From Candidatus Kerfeldbacteria bacterium RIFCSPLOWO2_02_FULL_42_19 (GTDB lineage Bacteria > Patescibacteriota > Patescibacteriia > HO2-48-17): DNA of 64,000 bases. The position numbers and the translations under genes were made by a program. The stretch covers positions 128,080 through 192,079 of the forward strand of contig MHKF01000012.1 of assembly GCA_001818315.1 (NCBI GenBank), read 5' to 3'. Of this stretch, positions 4,567 through 62,665 are shown piece by piece (position 1 is the stretch's first letter; the number at the start of each line of letters is the position of its first letter). Under the pieces are notes generated by a model. It was not told the DNA's origin, did no database searches, and was given only the letters and a program-made list of their open reading frames with translations.

Positions 4567-4746
4567 CTGCATTTAAGATAAGGCAGGGGAAGGATATATT
4601 TTTTCAAATGTGTTGTGATAAGTACTTCATCAAATAGAGAGGAAAGTGTGCACTATAGTAACTCTTTCAAATACAGATCGTTCATGTTTGGATATCACAG
4701 CTTTTGAAAAATTTATCCTTCCCCTGCCTTATCTTAAAGTTGCAGT
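4567..4746. repeat. Family-A element, copy 1: a ~110-nt conserved core flanked by a locus-specific perfect ~30-bp inverted repeat
   Basis: Arms ctgcatttaagataaggcaggggaaggata / tatccttcccctgccttatcttaaagttgcag; the core is shared with 24925-25090 (ttttttcaaatgYgttgtgat…atagagaggaaagtgtg…ttcatgtttggatatcacagcWtttgaaaaa). Confidence 0.6.
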
Positions 4747-13761: not shown

Positions 13762-13830
13762 TTAAAAATTTTTTTACAAGACACTTCGTTTCACATTATA
13801 AGAAAATTTAAAAGTTTTATGAGATAATTT

Positions 13831-13922
13831 CCAAAAGAGAGGAGGGGAAAACTATAGCTTTCGAAGCACTCACAATGCACAGTGTGCTGAGAAAGTTTTG
13901 TTTTCCCCTCCTCTCTTTTGGA
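13831..13922. repeat. Family-B hairpin repeat, copy 1 (between the convergent rpoD and TrmB genes; terminator-like)
   Basis: aaaagagaggaggggaaaactatagctttcgaagcactcacaatgcacagtgtgctgagaaag…cccctcctctctttt; the core is shared with 22319-22411, 32641-32721 (opposite orientation) and 62393-62477. Confidence 0.6.
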
Positions 13923-13986
13923 AATTGCCTTCAATTCGTTGCAAATGTTGATTTTGGACACACGACACCACAAATAACATTTCCGG

Positions 13987-15429: not shown

Positions 15430-15525
15430 TACCTTGGTCTTTGAACGCCCGCCGTTTATATAAAGGGTCTGTCGCCGAATACCATTTCTGTAAACGGCGA
15501 TAGACCCATAAACGGCGATAGTAAC

Positions 15526-15566
15526 AACCCGCTATGTCCTTTGGATCTTAGCGGGTTCTTTTTTTC
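15526..15566. terminator. Rho-independent terminator (bidirectional, between the 14908 gene and the znuB 3' end)
   Basis: aacccgct-[16-nt loop]-agcgggtt followed by cttttttt. Confidence 0.6.
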
Positions 15567-15589
15567 AAAATTGAGGGTTCATCAAATAC

Positions 15590-18040: not shown

Positions 18041-18116
18041 TCCGCGGTAGCTCAGTTGGTAGAGCAGTTGGCTGTTAACCAATTGGTCGTGGGTTCGAGT
18101 CCCACCCGCGGAGCCA
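18041..18116 (+). tRNA. tRNA-Asn (anticodon GUU)
   Basis: 7-bp acceptor stem tccgcgg/ccgcgga, D-arm TAGCTCAGTTGGTAGAGC, anticodon loop cuGUUaa, T-arm GGTTCGAGTCC, encoded CCA; 76 nt. Confidence 0.85.
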
Positions 18117-22318: not shown

Positions 22319-22411
22319 GCGAGGAGTTGAGTGTAGGGATAGTATAGCTTTCGAAGCACTAACATTGTACTGTGTGCTGAGAAAGTATATTATCCCTACA
22401 CTCAACTCCTC
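22319..22411. repeat. Family-B hairpin repeat, copy 2 (after the GH57-UVR stop)
   Basis: gaggagttgagtgtagggatagtatagctttcgaagcactaacattgtactgtgtgctgagaaagtat…atccctacactcaactcctc. Confidence 0.6.
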
Positions 22412-22488
22412 GTGCAATCGATTTGGATTATTGCAACGATGCGCCTTCTCGGTCATAATAATATCAAGATGTTCATTTGTGATTTTTA

Positions 22489-24894: not shown

Positions 24895-24924
24895 ATATTC
24901 GGGAATTTTCGTCCTGTAATTGAA

Positions 24925-25090
24925 AGAGTGAAGAACGGCGAGCATATGTTTTTTCAAATGCGTTGTGATTACCAACTTTATGAGATAGAGAGGAAAGTGT
25001 GTACGAGAGCAACTTTTTCAAACGAATATCATTCATGTTTGGATATCACAGCATTTGAAAAAACATATGCTCGCCGTTCTTCACTATTCA
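24925..25090. repeat. Family-A element, copy 2 (conserved core in a different, locus-specific perfect ~28-bp stem)
   Basis: Arms agtgaagaacggcgagcatatgtttttt / aaaaaacatatgctcgccgttcttcact; the core aligns with 4567-4746. Confidence 0.6.
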
Positions 25091-25110
25091 TATATCAAAA
25101 ATAAGGAGAT

Positions 25111-25308
25111 ATGGAATTTGCAAATCTGCGCTGTCCCTATTGCGGACATGTACAACAGGTGACGGTGCCACAAAAAAGTTGTCTTTTTTCGCATCGCTGC
25201 GCGCGATGTCATGATCTTATTACCGTACCATCGACGAGTTCGGAATGCTGTGTAATTTGCGCTTATTCCGATACGAAGTGTCCAGTGAGTCGCTCACAGA
25301 GTAAGTAA
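25111..25308 (+). CDS. small Cys-rich zinc-ribbon protein (hypothetical)
   Basis: 65 aa with CPYCG…C…C..C and a second CC..C cluster; weak support. Confidence 0.3.
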   Translation: MEFANLRCPYCGHVQQVTVPQKSCLFSHRCARCHDLITVPSTSSECCVICAYSDTKCPVSRSQSK

Positions 25309-32486: not shown

Positions 32487-32640
32487 GATCGATCGTTTGA
32501 CTCGTTTTTTTTCTCTTTCTGTGAGCAGGTTTTGCCTGCTCCGCTTCTTGAGATTGTGATGTTCGCTCTCGTAGTTTCAAGAAGCTGAGTACTTGTATCG
32601 GGACTGTCGCCGAATGTTATTTTTTGTTCAATACACGAAA

Positions 32641-32721
32641 CAAAAGAGGAGGATGACTCTCCTTTCTCAGCACACTGTGCAGTGTCAGTGCTTCGAAAGC
32701 AAGAGTCATCCTCTTCTTTTG
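32641..32721. repeat. Family-B hairpin repeat, copy 3 (inverted orientation)
   Basis: aaaagaggaggatgactctcctttctcagcacactgtgcagtgtcagtgcttcgaaagcaagagtcatcctcttctttt. Confidence 0.6.
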
Positions 32722-32895
32722 TTTTGCACATTGCATAAGAAAACGGTATTCGTGGACAGTCCCATATCGCGTCGTTATTTTCTTTTTGAGTAGAATGTTT
32801 TATATTTTAAGCAGTTGACTATTTTTATCTGTTGTTTTTTTATTCTCGGTGTGAAGAACAAAATATCCATACATCGTAGGTTTTGTTTCGCGAGC

Positions 32896-35679: not shown

Positions 35680-36810
35680 ATGCTCGGAGCTTTTCCCTCA
35701 CAAATGATTGAAAAACTTTTTACTGCCGGTCATATTCATGGAGCTGCTTTGCAGAATATACAACCTTCTTCGCTTGATCTTACACTTAGCGAGGAACTTT
35801 ATCGCGTGGAAGGCGTTTTTTTGCCACAGCGCGGAGAGCACGTACGTGATTTGATTGACATGTTTCACGCGCAGTCTGTAACTTTTGCTGAACCGCTTCA
35901 ATGTCACGGAGTGTATCTGTGTCGTCTGAATGAGCGTTTAGTGCTACCCGAGAGCGTCTATGCGTATGCGAATAACAAGTCGTCTACCGGTAGGATTAAT
36001 TTGCAGGTGCGTCTGCTTTGCGATGGCGTTCCGAAGTTTGATCAGATTCCCAAAAGCTACTGTGGCGAGTTGTGGATTCTTGTTGCGCCGCATTCATTTA
36101 GTATTGCTTTGCAACCAGGACAGTCGCTCAATCAGATGCGTTTTTTCAACGCGGATACGCGGCTTTCGGAAGAAGAACATCGCGCGCTCTATAGTTTTCA
36201 ACCGCTTTTGTATCAATTTGATGGAAAGTCATTCCCTGCAGCCGAAGTACTGTTTGATAAAGGTGGCGGTATCACGATGACGATTGATTTTGATCAGGAT
36301 ATTATTGGGTATGTTGCATTTCCGAATTCCGCAAAAGTTTTGGACTATGCGCGAAGGGATTATAAACCCGAAGATTTTTTTGAGCCTATTTGTCGACTGA
36401 AAAAGAATCAGTTAGTATTGAATAGAGAGGGATTTTACATTTTTTCCACGAAGGAATACATCGCTGTGCCGCCGGAATTTTCGGTCGAGATGATTGCGTA
36501 TGATCCAACCAAAGGCGAGTTCCGTACGCACTATGCTGGATTTTTTGATCCCGGCTGGGGTTTTGGAGCGCGCGGCGAACTGAAAGGTACGCCGGCGGTA
36601 CTCGAAGTGTACCCGCACGATCATAACTTTATCTTCCGTGATGGACAGCCGATTTGCAAAATGGTCTACGAGCGACTTGCGACGTTTCCAGATCGTATCT
36701 ACGGCGTAGGCGACCTCGGTTCACATTATCAGCATCAGCGCGGCCCGTGCCTTTCCAAACATTTTGTGCAGCACGCAAAAGTAGCTGCGAGTGTTTTGAG
36801 TCAAATATAA
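35680..36810 (+). CDS. dCTP deaminase-like protein, long tandem-domain form (dUTPase superfamily)
   Basis: N-terminal IQPSSLDLTLSEELYRV (cf. Dcd VQPASVDLRLG), SSTGRINLQV (GRSS.ARLG-like), ALQPGQSLNQMRFF; the second half carries THYAGFFDPGW (a DPGW motif). Confidence 0.5.
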   Translation: MLGAFPSQMIEKLFTAGHIHGAALQNIQPSSLDLTLSEELYRVEGVFLPQRGEHVRDLIDMFHAQSVTFAEPLQCHGVYLCRLNERLVLPESVYAYANNKSSTGRINLQVRLLCDGVPKFDQIPKSYCGELWILVAPHSFSIALQPGQSLNQMRFFNADTRLSEEEHRALYSFQPLLYQFDGKSFPAAEVLFDKGGGITMTIDFDQDIIGYVAFPNSAKVLDYARRDYKPEDFFEPICRLKKNQLVLNREGFYIFSTKEYIAVPPEFSVEMIAYDPTKGEFRTHYAGFFDPGWGFGARGELKGTPAVLEVYPHDHNFIFRDGQPICKMVYERLATFPDRIYGVGDLGSHYQHQRGPCLSKHFVQHAKVAASVLSQI

Positions 36811-36975
36811 TTTTGTTGCAGTGAGAGGGTATATTGCTGGGCGACTCTTTTTGCGAGCGGGTACGGTTCGAGCGAAATGCAATGGAGCGAGAGAGCGAAC
36901 AAAAAGTGTCAGTGAGTCCACACGCTGGGTGGACGAACGGCACAGCAATATACCCTCTCACTGCAACAAAATTTT
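36809..36975. repeat. ~165-bp element: a perfect 31-bp inverted repeat flanking a ~100-nt core, between the dcd-like and thyA-like genes
   Basis: aattttgttgcagtgagagggtatattgctg … cagcaatataccctctcactgcaacaaaatttt; the core contains gagagagcgaacaaaaagtgtcagtga, which resembles the Family-A core block agagaggaaagtgtg. Confidence 0.5.
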
Positions 36976-36987
36976 TTACCAAACTTC

Positions 36988-38517
36988 ATGACCCACACTA
37001 TGCCTGCAAAAGATTTTCCAAAAGAATGGCCGATCTATTTTAAAGACAATATTATCGTTGGAAATCTTCAGAATTCTGTTGGAATTGCCTGTCTTTGGAC
37101 GCCGAAAGTCATGTTCGCACGAAAGTTAAACGCCGCAAGTTACTGCGTTTTGAGTCAGTTGTATTCGAACGACGGCATTAATCCAATTTTGCGCAATGTT
37201 TTAGCTCGGCCGCAAATTCATACGATTGTTATTTGCGGGCAGGATAAAATTGGTTCAGCCGATGCGCTGACAAAGCTTTGCGTTAGCGGTATTGATGAGA
37301 AATACAAGATAATCGGTAAACTCGAGGCAAAGGTGGATAAGGAGATTCCGCGCGAGGCCGTGGAACTTTTTCGTAGGAACGTAAAGATTGTGGATATGCG
37401 TGGCGTGCTCGATGCGGCGAAAATTCAACAAGCCGTGCGCGAACACGCAGCGCCGAACACACCGTGGGCAGCGCCGCAACTTTTTCCTGAACCAGAACTT
37501 TCAACCGAACGTTTTCCGATCGATCCTCACGGAGTCAAGATTCGTGAGAAGTATGTCGCGCAAGCGTGGCTTCGGGTGCTGTATTATATTATGCGCTTCG
37601 GCGCGGAAAAACCTACGCATCACGGCACGAATCAAAAAGAACTCCTGAATATGATGACGATTATCACTGACGAAGATCCCGAAAATATCCATTGGGCAGA
37701 TTGGTTCAATTTTACACGCGAGCACTTTGAAGGGTATAAGCTACAAGTCATGAGTGCGGAATCGATTCCTAGTCTGGAGTATACGTACGGCATGCGATTG
37801 CGGAATCACGATGGCGTGAATCAGATTGAGACGCTTATTGCAAAAATTCGAGAGGAATATTTTTCCCGACGCGCTGTTGCTTTTACGTGGAATGTCGCTC
37901 AGGATAACGTGAGTCAGCATCCGCCGTGCCTTGATCTCGTACAGGTGATTGTGCAGGACGATACGCTTCACATGACGTGTTACTTTCGTTCGAATGACAT
38001 GTTCCGCGCATGGCCGGAAAATGCGTTGGCCTTGCGCACGATGCACAAGGAGATTGCCGACGGAGTGGAATTGCCGATGGGCGAAATGTGTATTATTTCT
38101 CACAGCGCTCATGTGTACGAAGAAAACTATAATGAAGTGAAGGAGCTTTTGAAAAATTATTATGCGAAAGAGGTTGTTTTTTGCCGTTTTGATCCGCGTG
38201 GCAATTTTACGATTCACGTGAATCGCGAAAAGCGTCAGTTAGAAATGATCATGATGACGCCGAAAGGTGAGAAGATTGTCAAATACGAAGCACCCGATGC
38301 GTTCCGTATGATGCAAAAATTGGTCGCTGATGAAGCAGTTAGCGAGATTGGGCACGCGTTAGATTTGGGTGAGGAGCTCATGGAAGCAGAAATTTGTTTG
38401 CGTACAGGCCTTGAATATCGGCAGGATATCACAGGACGTACGCAATTTTTAAAGGAACTTGATCAGCTTTTGGCAGCACGCAGGCAAGAGGAACGAATCT
38501 TCGCGCGTTCAAGATGA
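36988..38517 (+). CDS. thymidylate synthase (ThyA-fold) homolog with a ~170-aa N-terminal extension
   Basis: RRAVAFTWNVAQD…HPPCLDLVQVIVQD…CYFRSNDMFRAWPENALALRTMHKEIA…ISHSAHVYEENYNE parallels the ThyA blocks R..WNP.D…PPCH…QF.V…YQRS.D…PFNIASYALL…GD.HIY.NH, including the catalytic Cys. Confidence 0.55.
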   Translation: MTHTMPAKDFPKEWPIYFKDNIIVGNLQNSVGIACLWTPKVMFARKLNAASYCVLSQLYSNDGINPILRNVLARPQIHTIVICGQDKIGSADALTKLCVSGIDEKYKIIGKLEAKVDKEIPREAVELFRRNVKIVDMRGVLDAAKIQQAVREHAAPNTPWAAPQLFPEPELSTERFPIDPHGVKIREKYVAQAWLRVLYYIMRFGAEKPTHHGTNQKELLNMMTIITDEDPENIHWADWFNFTREHFEGYKLQVMSAESIPSLEYTYGMRLRNHDGVNQIETLIAKIREEYFSRRAVAFTWNVAQDNVSQHPPCLDLVQVIVQDDTLHMTCYFRSNDMFRAWPENALALRTMHKEIADGVELPMGEMCIISHSAHVYEENYNEVKELLKNYYAKEVVFCRFDPRGNFTIHVNREKRQLEMIMMTPKGEKIVKYEAPDAFRMMQKLVADEAVSEIGHALDLGEELMEAEICLRTGLEYRQDITGRTQFLKELDQLLAARRQEERIFARSR

Positions 38518-62353: not shown

Positions 62354-62392
62354 TGGAGCTGCCGTTGAATCCCGTTTCTTGTACAATGTGCA

Positions 62393-62477
62393 AAGCAAAA
62401 GAGGAGGAAGGCGAGAGCTTCCGAAGCACTGACAGTGCACAGTGTGCTTCGGAAGCTCTCGCCTTCCTCCTCTTTTG
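62393..62477. repeat. Family-B hairpin repeat, copy 4 (between convergent genes)
   Basis: aaaagaggaggaaggcgagagcttccgaagcactgacagtgcacagtgtgcttcggaagctctcgccttcctcctcttttg. Confidence 0.6.
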
Positions 62478-62665
62478 TCTATAATCACAATGTATTTTTC
62501 ACAGGCGGAAGCGTATTCAGCTGCAGTCCTTTAATAATCCGAAGCTTTGAGTTTACCTATCACAAATAAAAGCGCATCGAATCGGATCGGTGCATATACC
62601 CATAACTGTCCACAATCCTGCATATAGGCTAAAACTTGATTTTTCCCTGCGCTCTTGGCGCAGGG

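What the first reader, a model, noticed from the sequence alone, without database searches (positions are those of the whole stretch)
36809..36975. A third long-stem element (31-bp perfect inverted repeat around a ~100-nt core) between the dcd-like and thyA-like genes
The arms aattttgttgcagtgagagggtatattgctg / cagcaatataccctctcactgcaacaaaatttt are perfectly complementary. The core contains gagagagcgaacaaaaagtgtcagtga, which echoes the Family-A block agagaggaaagtgtg. A 31-bp perfect helix is far longer than an intrinsic terminator needs. If the two genes are co-transcribed it would sit inside the operon, so it could be an RNase III processing site, an attenuator or an inserted element. Two spurious mirror ORFs (36721-36948 on the minus strand and 36834-37043 on the plus strand) give the same peptide AIYPLTATK from the two arms.
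Basis: seen in the sequence. Interest (0 to 1): 0.5.

Follow-up and report, generated by a model that had tools for sequence, protein, structure and literature searches.

The report
Orphan palindromic insertion splitting dcd–thyA
A 165-base non-coding DNA palindrome has been inserted, in this one lineage of a Kerfeldbacteria (CPR) bacterium, exactly at the stop codon of the dCTP deaminase gene; it separates two genes that overlap or nearly touch in all relatives examined, and it most resembles the small hairpin-forming mobile repeats (MITE-like elements) already known from other bacteria.

Summary
A perfect 31-bp inverted repeat (36809-36839 / 36943-36973) encloses a 103-nt core between a dCTP deaminase gene and a thymidylate-synthase fusion gene.

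- **Structure:** the whole element folds at -86.7 kcal/mol (z = -9.7). The core alone folds no better than shuffled sequence (z = -0.9).
- **Insertion:** in four relatives dcd and thyA are -4, +5, -4 and +8 nt apart, and about 20 nt apart in a fifth. In a sixth, another gene follows dcd after 18 nt. Here the gap is 177 nt, so the hairpin is a lineage-specific insertion. It is identical in five assemblies of this organism.
- **Target site:** removing the element plus one AATT restores a 16-nt AT-rich spacer like that of one relative.
- **Family A:** the claimed echo of Family A is at chance level.
- **Homologues:** none turned up in about 270 kb of this and related genomes, in phage, plasmid and viral collections, in Rfam, or in 5.8 billion proteins.
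- **Context:** the genome carries two other sequence-unrelated families of ~165-nt palindromic elements.

Best reading: an orphan MITE-like palindromic insertion, co-transcribed with dcd-thyA. RNase III cleavage and partial termination are plausible but untested. It is a new member of a known kind, of modest interest.

The parts
36809..36839 (+). 5' arm of the perfect 31-bp inverted repeat. Pairing continues imperfectly to 36842.
36943..36973 (+). 3' arm of the perfect 31-bp inverted repeat. Imperfect pairing starts at 36940.
36840..36942 (+). Core of 103 nt. GC is 55% against 42.6% for the window. GAGCG occurs four times (36855, 36870, 36885, 36893). On its own it folds no better than shuffles.
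36809..36812 (.). Candidate target-site duplication AATT, left copy. It is palindromic, so it cannot be told apart from the outermost 4 bp of the inverted repeat.
   Evidence: sequence reading; the reconstructed empty site resembles the L036 spacer
36970..36973 (.). Candidate target-site duplication AATT, right copy.
   Evidence: sequence reading
36813..36969 (.). The element proper if AATT is a target-site duplication: 157 bp with 27-bp perfect terminal inverted repeats TTGTTGCAGTGAGAGGGTATATTGCTG.
   Evidence: inference
36972..36977 (+). Run of six T. The first two are paired in the stem and four are unpaired, giving a weak terminator-like tail.
   Evidence: not flagged by the terminator scan
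35680..36810 (+). dCTP deaminase gene (376 aa). Its stop codon TAA at 36808-36810 sits at the base of the stem.
36988..38517 (+). MtrA-like/thymidylate synthase/pterin-binding fusion gene. The ATG at 37000 aligns with the start used in the closest relative. No Shine-Dalgarno sequence precedes either ATG.

Best explanation
The element is a lineage-specific, non-coding palindromic insertion of the MITE/foldback kind. It is 157-165 bp long with 27-31-bp perfect terminal inverted repeats. It landed in an AT-rich spacer of about 16 nt at the stop codon of dcd. That split a dcd-thyA pair which is overlapping or nearly contiguous, and probably translationally coupled, in relatives.

Shown: the inverted repeat, the insertion relative to six relatives, the lack of coding capacity, the lack of intrinsic structure in the core, and the presence of other ~165-bp palindromic repeat families in the same genome.

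Inferred: it arrived by transposition in trans, possibly with a 4-bp AATT duplication. It is transcribed as part of the dcd-thyA mRNA, because thyA has no promoter or ribosome-binding site of its own and both genes are intact. In that RNA it forms one long hairpin. A perfect 31-bp helix is a plausible RNase III substrate and at most a leaky terminator. I see no evidence that it was selected for a regulatory role. It is most likely a tolerated selfish or neutral insertion.
For: - **Repeat is far beyond chance:**
- **Fold:** -86.7 kcal/mol, z = -9.67 on the + strand and z = -9.52 on the - strand.
- **All stability comes from the arms:** the core alone gives z = -0.88 and -0.68.
- **Orthologous junctions:** L006 (DCD 86% identical) has an ATGA overlap. 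L007-9 (68%) have 5 nt. L034 (63%) has an ATGA overlap. L035 (60%) has 8 nt. L036 (68%) has a 20-nt T-rich spacer beginning TAATTT. In L037 a different gene follows dcd after 18 nt.
- **Fixed in this organism:** the element is identical in five assemblies.
- **Restored spacer:** deleting 36813-36973 gives TAATTTTTTACCAAACTTCATG.
- **The same genome holds mobile-looking palindromes of the same size:** Family A has 2 copies. One of them is absent from the orthologous GalT-downstream spacer of L006. Family B has 4 copies here and 22 pattern matches on related contigs, some counted twice in overlapping assemblies. It has GGGACTGTCGCCGAAT terminal repeats, lengths of 145-186 bp (most 162-178) and AT-rich flanks that often repeat.
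- **No promoter-like site** lies between the element and thyA.
- **No Rfam family matches**.
- **No protein resembles any reading frame** of the element.
Against: - No second copy was found in the window, in 20 kb more of the same scaffold, or in about 185 kb from relatives. The multi-copy criterion of a MITE is therefore unmet in the roughly 85 kb of this genome I could see.
- The putative duplication AATT is palindromic and so cannot be proven.
- No transposase is encoded in the window (gene tables).
- The closest empty site belongs to a species with only 86% DCD identity, so the insertion boundaries are not sharp.
- Nothing was measured at the RNA level.
Confidence: 0.6

Rival explanations
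1. Non-transposon origin. A stretch of filler DNA was captured at a break between dcd and thyA. Its ends were then made perfectly complementary by replication template switching or fold-back synthesis, so the hairpin is a by-product of repair rather than a mobile element.
For: It is an orphan, with no other copy anywhere searched. The arms are perfect Watson-Crick over 31 bp with no G-U pair, as expected for templated copying. In this genome other hairpins with conserved centres carry unique perfect arms, which calls for some arm-generating or arm-homogenising process. Template switching is documented to create and maintain perfect stems (PMC8794818).
Against: Template switching copies tens of bases and does not explain the origin of the ~100-nt GC-richer core. 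Neither arm resembles sequence at the empty sites of relatives. The length matches the ~165 bp of the two repeat families in the genome.
Confidence: 0.2
2. A selected cis-acting RNA element of the dcd-thyA operon. It could be an RNase III processing site, an mRNA 3' stabiliser or partial terminator that sets the dcd:thyA ratio, or a device that keeps translational coupling by bringing the dcd stop and the thyA start together at the base of the stem.
For: The dcd stop codon sits exactly at the base of the stem, and the thyA ATG lies 14 nt after it. thyA lacks a Shine-Dalgarno sequence in all species, so it probably depends on dcd translation. The + strand folds about 9 kcal/mol better than the - strand. 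A run of T follows the stem. CREE hairpins in Neisseria are bound or cut by RNase III (PMC2649163).
Against: It is absent from every relative, so it is not a conserved regulator. The core has no significant structure. The base of the stem is six A-U pairs, which is poor for termination. The organism has ordinary terminators, for example 15529-15570. There is no covariation evidence because no orthologue exists.
Confidence: 0.15
3. An independent small structured RNA gene, or a diverged copy of the window's Family A or Family B element.
For: The size (165 nt) equals that of Family A (165-167 nt), and the TATA junction lies in the same relative place. Global identity of the inner part to A1 is 0.53 against a shuffle mean of 0.474, sd 0.022.
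Against: No Rfam hit appears even at E = 10. Local alignment to Family A and to most Family B comparisons is at shuffle level; one Family B copy (32620, + strand) scored 20, reached by 7 of 300 shuffles, among 12 comparisons. Identity to A2 is 0.49, which is at baseline. The Family B profile and single-sequence nhmmer searches do not link them. No promoter-like site lies in front of it. The core is not structured.
Confidence: 0.05

Closest known systems
Correia repeat-enclosed elements (CREE/NEMIS) of Neisseria (PMC2649163)
   Same: A non-coding element of roughly 100-160 bp, with terminal inverted repeats around a core. It is intergenic and co-transcribed with neighbouring genes. Its RNA folds into a long hairpin that RNase III can bind or cut. 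Presence or absence differs between related genomes.
   Different: CREE occur in many copies per genome and can create promoters and bind IHF (PMC2649163). From my own recollection, not checked here, they duplicate a TA target. This element is a single copy in all sequence available, has no sequence similarity to CREE, shows no promoter-like site, and has not been tested for RNase III cleavage.
Other bacterial MITE-like or stem-loop repeat families such as ERIC, RUP and BOX (reviews PMC2229807, PMC2267715, PMC1590033)
   Same: Small, non-autonomous, hairpin-forming and intergenic. They sometimes sit at gene ends and alter mRNA fate.
   Different: Those are defined as families by many similar copies. 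Here no family could be shown.
Family A (4572-4738, 24924-25088) and Family B (for example 32600-32763, 62355-62530) of the same window
   Same: Total length of about 165 nt and a long near-perfect outer stem. A TATA lies at the junction of outer arm and inner part. All are intergenic and lie just downstream of a + strand gene. One Family A copy is likewise absent from the orthologous site in the closest relative.
   Different: There is no significant sequence similarity in the core or the arms.
REPINs / REP doublets mobilised by RAYT transposases (PMC3116915, PMC2817692)
   Same: Hairpin-forming non-autonomous mobile DNA found in intergenic regions.
   Different: REPs are 20-40-nt units in high copy number (PMC2817692), often tagged by GTAG or CGTC at one end (PMC3733652), and are associated with a RAYT tyrosine transposase gene. 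None of these features is seen here.
Intrinsic (rho-independent) terminators
   Same: A hairpin followed by a run of T, directly after a stop codon.
   Different: The stem is 31 bp and encloses 103 nt, instead of a short G+C-rich stem with a small loop of the kind the scan models (at least 5 pairs, loop 3-8). The base of the stem is A-U rich. The downstream gene is the coupled partner and has no promoter of its own.
Hairpins created or perfected by replication template switching (PMC8794818)
   Same: A long perfectly paired stem with no intermediate mismatches.
   Different: That mechanism explains arm perfection but not the arrival of about 165 bp of new sequence.

Membership tests
Bacterial MITE (non-autonomous DNA transposon) | Terminal inverted repeats | tested here: met
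   27-31 bp, 100% complementary
Bacterial MITE (non-autonomous DNA transposon) | Small size and no coding capacity | tested here: met
   165 bp. No Pfam-bearing ORF. A six-frame peptide query found no similar protein among 5.8 billion. The number of open frames is not unusual.
Bacterial MITE (non-autonomous DNA transposon) | Target-site duplication flanking the repeats | tested here: inconclusive
   AATT at 36809-36812 and 36970-36973 fits, but it is palindromic. The reconstructed empty site TAATTTTTTACC resembles TAATTTCATTATTTTTTTT in L036.
Bacterial MITE (non-autonomous DNA transposon) | Several similar copies in the genome | tested here: inconclusive
   No second copy in the 64-kb window, in 20 kb of adjoining scaffold, or in about 185 kb from relatives. 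Most of the genome was not available, since both genome-contig scans returned nothing, not even the element's own locus.
Bacterial MITE (non-autonomous DNA transposon) | Empty orthologous sites in related genomes | tested here: met
   The dcd-thyA gap is -4, +5, -4, +8 and +20 nt in L006, L007, L034, L035 and L036, against 177 nt here.
Bacterial MITE (non-autonomous DNA transposon) | An autonomous partner IS with matching terminal repeats | not testable with these tools
   No transposase domain appears in the window (gene tables). The rest of the genome could not be reached.
Window Family A | Conserved inner ~117 nt (TTTTTTCAAATG ... ATAGAGAGGAAAGTGTG ... TTCATGTTTGGATATCACAGC) | tested here: not met
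   Neither motif occurs within 3 mismatches. Alignment is at shuffle level. nhmmer with the A1 inner part finds only A1 and A2.
Window Family B | GGGACTGTCGCCGAAT terminal repeats and the CGAAGCACT...GTGTGCT core | tested here: not met
   The nhmmer profile built from 14 full-length copies does not hit 36809-36973 at E <= 10.
Intrinsic terminator | Short G+C-rich stem, small loop, then a U-tract | tested here: not met
   Not reported by the terminator scan. The stem is 31 bp around 103 nt, the base is A-U rich, and only 4 unpaired T follow.
Intrinsic terminator | Lies at the end of a transcription unit | tested here: not met
   thyA is the coupled downstream partner in relatives, and no promoter-like site precedes it here.
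RNase III processing site | A double-stranded RNA helix of about two turns or more within a transcript | tested here: met
   Predicted 31-bp perfect helix, with minimum-energy and centroid structures identical. This is a prediction only.
RNase III processing site | Actual staggered cleavage in the stem | not testable with these tools
   Needs transcript-end mapping or an in vitro cleavage assay.
Any Rfam RNA family | Score at or above the family's gathering threshold | tested here: not met
   Only one tRNA in the window. The best local hits have E values of 2.5-7.8 to microRNA hairpin models.
Integron attC site | R''/R' core sites (RYYYAAC ... GTTRRRY) next to an integrase and cassette array | tested here: not met
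   By reading, the ends are TTGTTGCAG / CTGCAACAA, and GTTGCAG does not fit GTTRRRY. No integrase is present in the window.

The most novel reading that the evidence does not exclude
The element may be one instance of an undescribed class of mobile hairpins in Kerfeldbacteria. In this class a family-specific centre bounded by TATA is always found between unique, perfectly complementary arms that arise or are re-templated at each locus, for example by fold-back synthesis or arm homogenisation. That would explain three things: why three sequence-unrelated families share a length of ~165 nt, why copies with 80% identical centres have unrelated arms, and why orthologous hairpins keep pairing while their arms diverge. 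A secondary novel reading is that the perfect stem lets a ribosome terminating at the dcd stop re-initiate at thyA across 165 nt, in a shunt-like way.
Probability: 0.1. Interest if true: 0.75.

Novelty: new member of a known kind. Interest (0 to 1): 0.3.

Why it matters
On its own the matter is modest. It documents a palindromic insertion that splits a conserved, probably translationally coupled nucleotide-metabolism gene pair (dcd-thyA) in a small CPR genome without inactivating either gene. Mobile and repetitive DNA in Patescibacteria is poorly described. My literature searches found no paper describing such elements in this group. The 31-bp perfect repeat also breaks k=31 assemblies exactly at the arm, which is a practical point for metagenome work. 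The wider pattern seen in passing would matter more if it proves to be a distinct mechanism. That pattern is conserved centres inside unique perfect arms, across several families of ~165 nt.

Tried and rejected
- **Kinship with Family A:** rejected. Smith-Waterman scores against shuffles, motif searches and nhmmer all fail to link them.
- **Diverged Family B copy:** rejected by a profile nhmmer search.
- **Known RNA family:** rejected. Rfam at the gathering threshold and at E <= 10 gives nothing. I also compared the core by eye with the hammerhead consensus, and CAGUGAG...GAAC does not fit CUGANGA...GAAA.
- **Structured core RNA:** rejected, because the core alone is not more stable than shuffles.
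- **Hidden coding function or unusual openness of reading frames:** not significant. Two frames are open, and about 9% of simulations reach at least two. No protein hit was found.
- **Arms copied from nearby sequence:** no third copy of the arms exists in 270 kb.
- **Searches that found nothing:**
  - two genome-contig scans, because the organism is not in that collection
  - two viral-contig scans
  - phage and plasmid blastn
- **Integron attC and REP/REPIN:** considered and rejected on their defining motifs.
- **Filled versus empty Family B sites among related MAG loci:** none available.

Full report
**Observation**

The window carries a perfect 31-bp inverted repeat at 36809-36839 and 36943-36973. 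Pairing extends to 34 nt at 97% with one G·A mismatch, and the arms are 97 nt apart as reported. The 27-mer at the heart of the arm occurs only in these two places, and never in 100 dinucleotide-preserving shuffles. As RNA, the region 36800-36985 folds into one long hairpin. The energy is -86.7 kcal/mol on the + strand (z = -9.67) and -78.1 kcal/mol on the - strand (z = -9.52). The minimum-energy and centroid structures are identical.

The two 'mirror' ORFs and their shared peptide AIYPLTATK exist. They are a trivial consequence of the repeat. The upstream gene (35680-36810) is a two-domain dCTP deaminase. The downstream gene (36988-38517) is an MtrA-like/thymidylate synthase/pterin-binding fusion. 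The dcd stop codon TAA (36808-36810) overlaps the first two bases of the repeat. The first ATG of thyA lies 14 nt after the last paired base.

**Source and context**

The exact DCD protein is found on contigs of a Rifle-aquifer MAG: GCA_001818735.1 and ANAN16 scaffold_10 of 320 kb. The best named relative is a Candidatus Kerfeldbacteria bacterium, in the CPR/Patescibacteria. The window is ordinary chromosome, with two sigma-70 genes, DnaG, a ROK kinase, a peroxiredoxin, glycogen-metabolism genes, ABC transporters and a glycosyltransferase cluster. It has no transposase or integrase domain (gene tables). The element is identical in five independent assemblies. Logan contigs built with k=31 end inside the 5' arm.

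**Comparison with relatives (the decisive result)**

| Relative | DCD identity | Gene after dcd | Gap |
|---|---|---|---|
| L006 | 86% | thyA | -4 nt (ATGA overlap) |
| L007-L009 | 68% | thyA | +5 nt |
| L034 | 63% | thyA | -4 nt (ATGA overlap) |
| L035 | 60% | thyA | +8 nt |
| L036 | 68% | thyA | +20 nt, T-rich spacer beginning TAATTT |
| L037 | 65% | a different gene | +18 nt |
| This window | – | thyA | +177 nt |

None of the relatives has a hairpin at this junction, so the element is an insertion specific to this lineage. Suppose 36813-36973 is removed, that is, the element plus one copy of AATT. The junction then reads TAATTTTTTACCAAACTTCATG, a 16-nt AT-rich spacer much like that of L036. 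This fits a 27-bp terminal repeat plus a 4-bp target duplication AATT. Because AATT is its own reverse complement, this cannot be told apart from a 31-bp repeat.

In the relatives read at this junction (L006, L007, L034, L035, L036) thyA has no Shine-Dalgarno sequence, which fits expression by coupling to dcd. The same is true here. The consensus scan finds no promoter-like site between the element and thyA. Both genes are intact, so read-through transcription of the element is the simplest inference.

**What the element is made of**

The 103-nt core alone folds no better than shuffled sequence (z = -0.88 on the + strand, -0.68 on the - strand). All the exceptional stability therefore comes from the arms. 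The core is richer in G+C than the window (55% against 42.6%, the top 4% of 97-nt windows). It contains GAGCG four times. No Rfam family matches at the gathering threshold or at E <= 10. The number of stop-free frames is not unusual. A concatenated six-frame peptide query found no similar protein among 5.8 billion clusters.

**The claimed link to 'Family A'**

Two Family A elements (4572-4738 and 24924-25088) are 80% identical over their inner ~117 nt. Their outer 22-25-bp arms are unrelated. The present element shares their length (165 against 165-167 nt) and has a TATA at the junction of outer arm and inner part. Its sequence is not related to them, as these tests show:

- Local alignment scores equal the shuffle mean.
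- The Family A motifs are absent within three mismatches.
- nhmmer does not connect the elements.
- One global-identity comparison is slightly above shuffles (0.53 against 0.474 ± 0.022). The comparison with the second copy is at baseline.

I treat the 'echo' as chance.

**Other palindromic elements in the same genome**

The window also holds four copies of a second family, Family B. A metagenome scan with its core returned 19 loci and 23 matches, 22 of them on contigs of related MAGs and one on a contig of this organism. Some of those loci are overlapping assemblies of the same region. Aligned, the full-length form has these features:

- It is 145-186 bp long, most copies 162-178 bp.
- It has GGGACTGTCGCCGAAT...ATTCGGCGACAGTCCC terminal repeats.
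- Its AT-rich flanks often repeat on both sides (ATTT, TTTT, TTATA, TTAT, TAAT).

A profile of Family B finds the four window copies and a solo-end remnant at 15465-15511, but not the present element. One Family A copy (24924-25088) is absent from the orthologous GalT-downstream spacer of L006, which is 17 nt there against 217 nt here. So this lineage demonstrably gains ~165-bp palindromic elements in short spacers between co-directional genes. The present element fits that pattern as a third, so far single-copy, type.

**Search for further copies**

None was found in any of these:

- the window
- 20 kb of adjoining scaffold
- 137 kb of related MAG loci
- phage and plasmid collections
- IMG/VR

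Both genome-contig scans returned nothing, including the element's own locus, so the organism is not in that collection. Most of this genome was therefore not searchable. The multi-copy criterion remains open.

**Mechanism**

Shown:

- a perfect terminal inverted repeat
- insertion relative to relatives
- no coding or known RNA identity
- an unstructured core
- co-occurrence with mobile-looking palindromic families of the same size

Inferred:

- transposition in trans into an AT-rich site
- co-transcription with dcd-thyA
- formation of a 31-bp helix that RNase III could cut, as described for Correia elements (PMC2649163)
- at most leaky termination

The case for only leaky termination rests on three points. 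The base of the stem is six A-U pairs, only four unpaired U follow it, and the organism has ordinary terminators elsewhere (15529-15570).

The rivals are as follows:

- a repair or template-switch origin (PMC8794818), which explains arm perfection but not the new 100-nt core
- a selected cis-regulatory hairpin, which is not conserved in any relative
- an independent RNA gene, for which there is no promoter, no structure in the core and no family

**Novelty and verdict**

I class the element as a new, orphan member of a known kind: small palindromic, MITE-like intergenic insertions (PMC2229807, PMC2267715). I note that one defining feature, copy number, could not be settled. Interest is modest at 0.3.

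The more unusual thing is the wider pattern. Conserved centres sit inside unique perfect arms, with TATA junctions, across three unrelated ~165-nt families. An orthologous Family B-type hairpin upstream of the glycosyltransferase gene shows the same behaviour. It has diverged arms in this window (22320-22412) and in L006 (2583-2654), yet keeps about 95% complementarity. I could not explain this pattern, and it is recorded as unexplained.

Noticed in passing
window 32600-32763, 62355-62530, 13826-13926, 22320-22412, 15465-15511; loci L010-L028: Family B is a palindromic repeat, most full-length copies 162-178 bp, with GGGACTGTCGCCGAAT terminal repeats and a conserved centre CGAAGCACTnACAnTGnACnGTGTGCT. 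The window has four copies plus a solo-end remnant. A metagenome scan gave 22 further matches on contigs of related MAGs, some in overlapping assemblies. AT-rich flanks often repeat on both sides, which suggests target-site duplications.
   Followed up: partly
window 4572-4738 vs 24924-25088; 13826-13926; 22320-22412; L010:4788-4875; L023:454-541; L017:1537-1612: Hairpins with the same conserved centre carry completely different, perfectly complementary outer arms. The junction is nearly always TATA. The arms have no third copy in 270 kb and are not present at the empty orthologous site. No mechanism was established.
   Followed up: partly
window 24895-25111 vs L006:1-110: The Family A copy downstream of GalT is absent in the closest relative. 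There the GalT stop and the next small gene (MEFANLRCPY...) are 17 nt apart, against 217 nt here.
   Followed up: yes
window 22320-22412 and 22431-22459; L006:2583-2654: An orthologous Family B-type hairpin lies upstream of the glycosyltransferase gene in both species. Its arms have diverged but still pair. Next to it is a conserved sigma-70-like promoter, TTGCAA-N17-CATAAT. Synteny on the far side of the hairpin differs between the two genomes, so a rearrangement breakpoint lies at the hairpin.
   Followed up: partly
window 36988-38517 and L035:3613-6104: The thymidylate synthase here is a 509-aa fusion of an MtrA-like N-terminal domain, a ThyA domain and a C-terminal pterin-binding DUF4346. 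The fusion is conserved in Patescibacteria relatives. In L035 it sits in a dcd-thyA-tmk-dut/dcd cluster after the ribosomal L11/L1 genes.
   Followed up: no
window 15529-15570: A canonical intrinsic terminator (CCCGCTA...TAGCGGG followed by a T-run) lies between convergent genes. This shows the organism also uses ordinary terminators.
   Followed up: no
L031:2126-2251 (same scaffold, about 7 kb upstream of the window start): Another unique 126-nt nested palindrome lies in an intergenic spacer between two + strand genes. Its outer arms are 19 nt (95% complementary) and its inner arms 25 nt (84%).
   Followed up: no
L029:4098-4126; L002:7723-7737: Logan (k=31) contigs of this organism stop inside the 5' arm of the palindrome. 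The NCBI assembly has a run of N inside thyA, which is why that gene is not annotated there.
   Followed up: yes
window 18041-18113: A single tRNA gene is the only Rfam match at the gathering threshold in the window.
   Followed up: no
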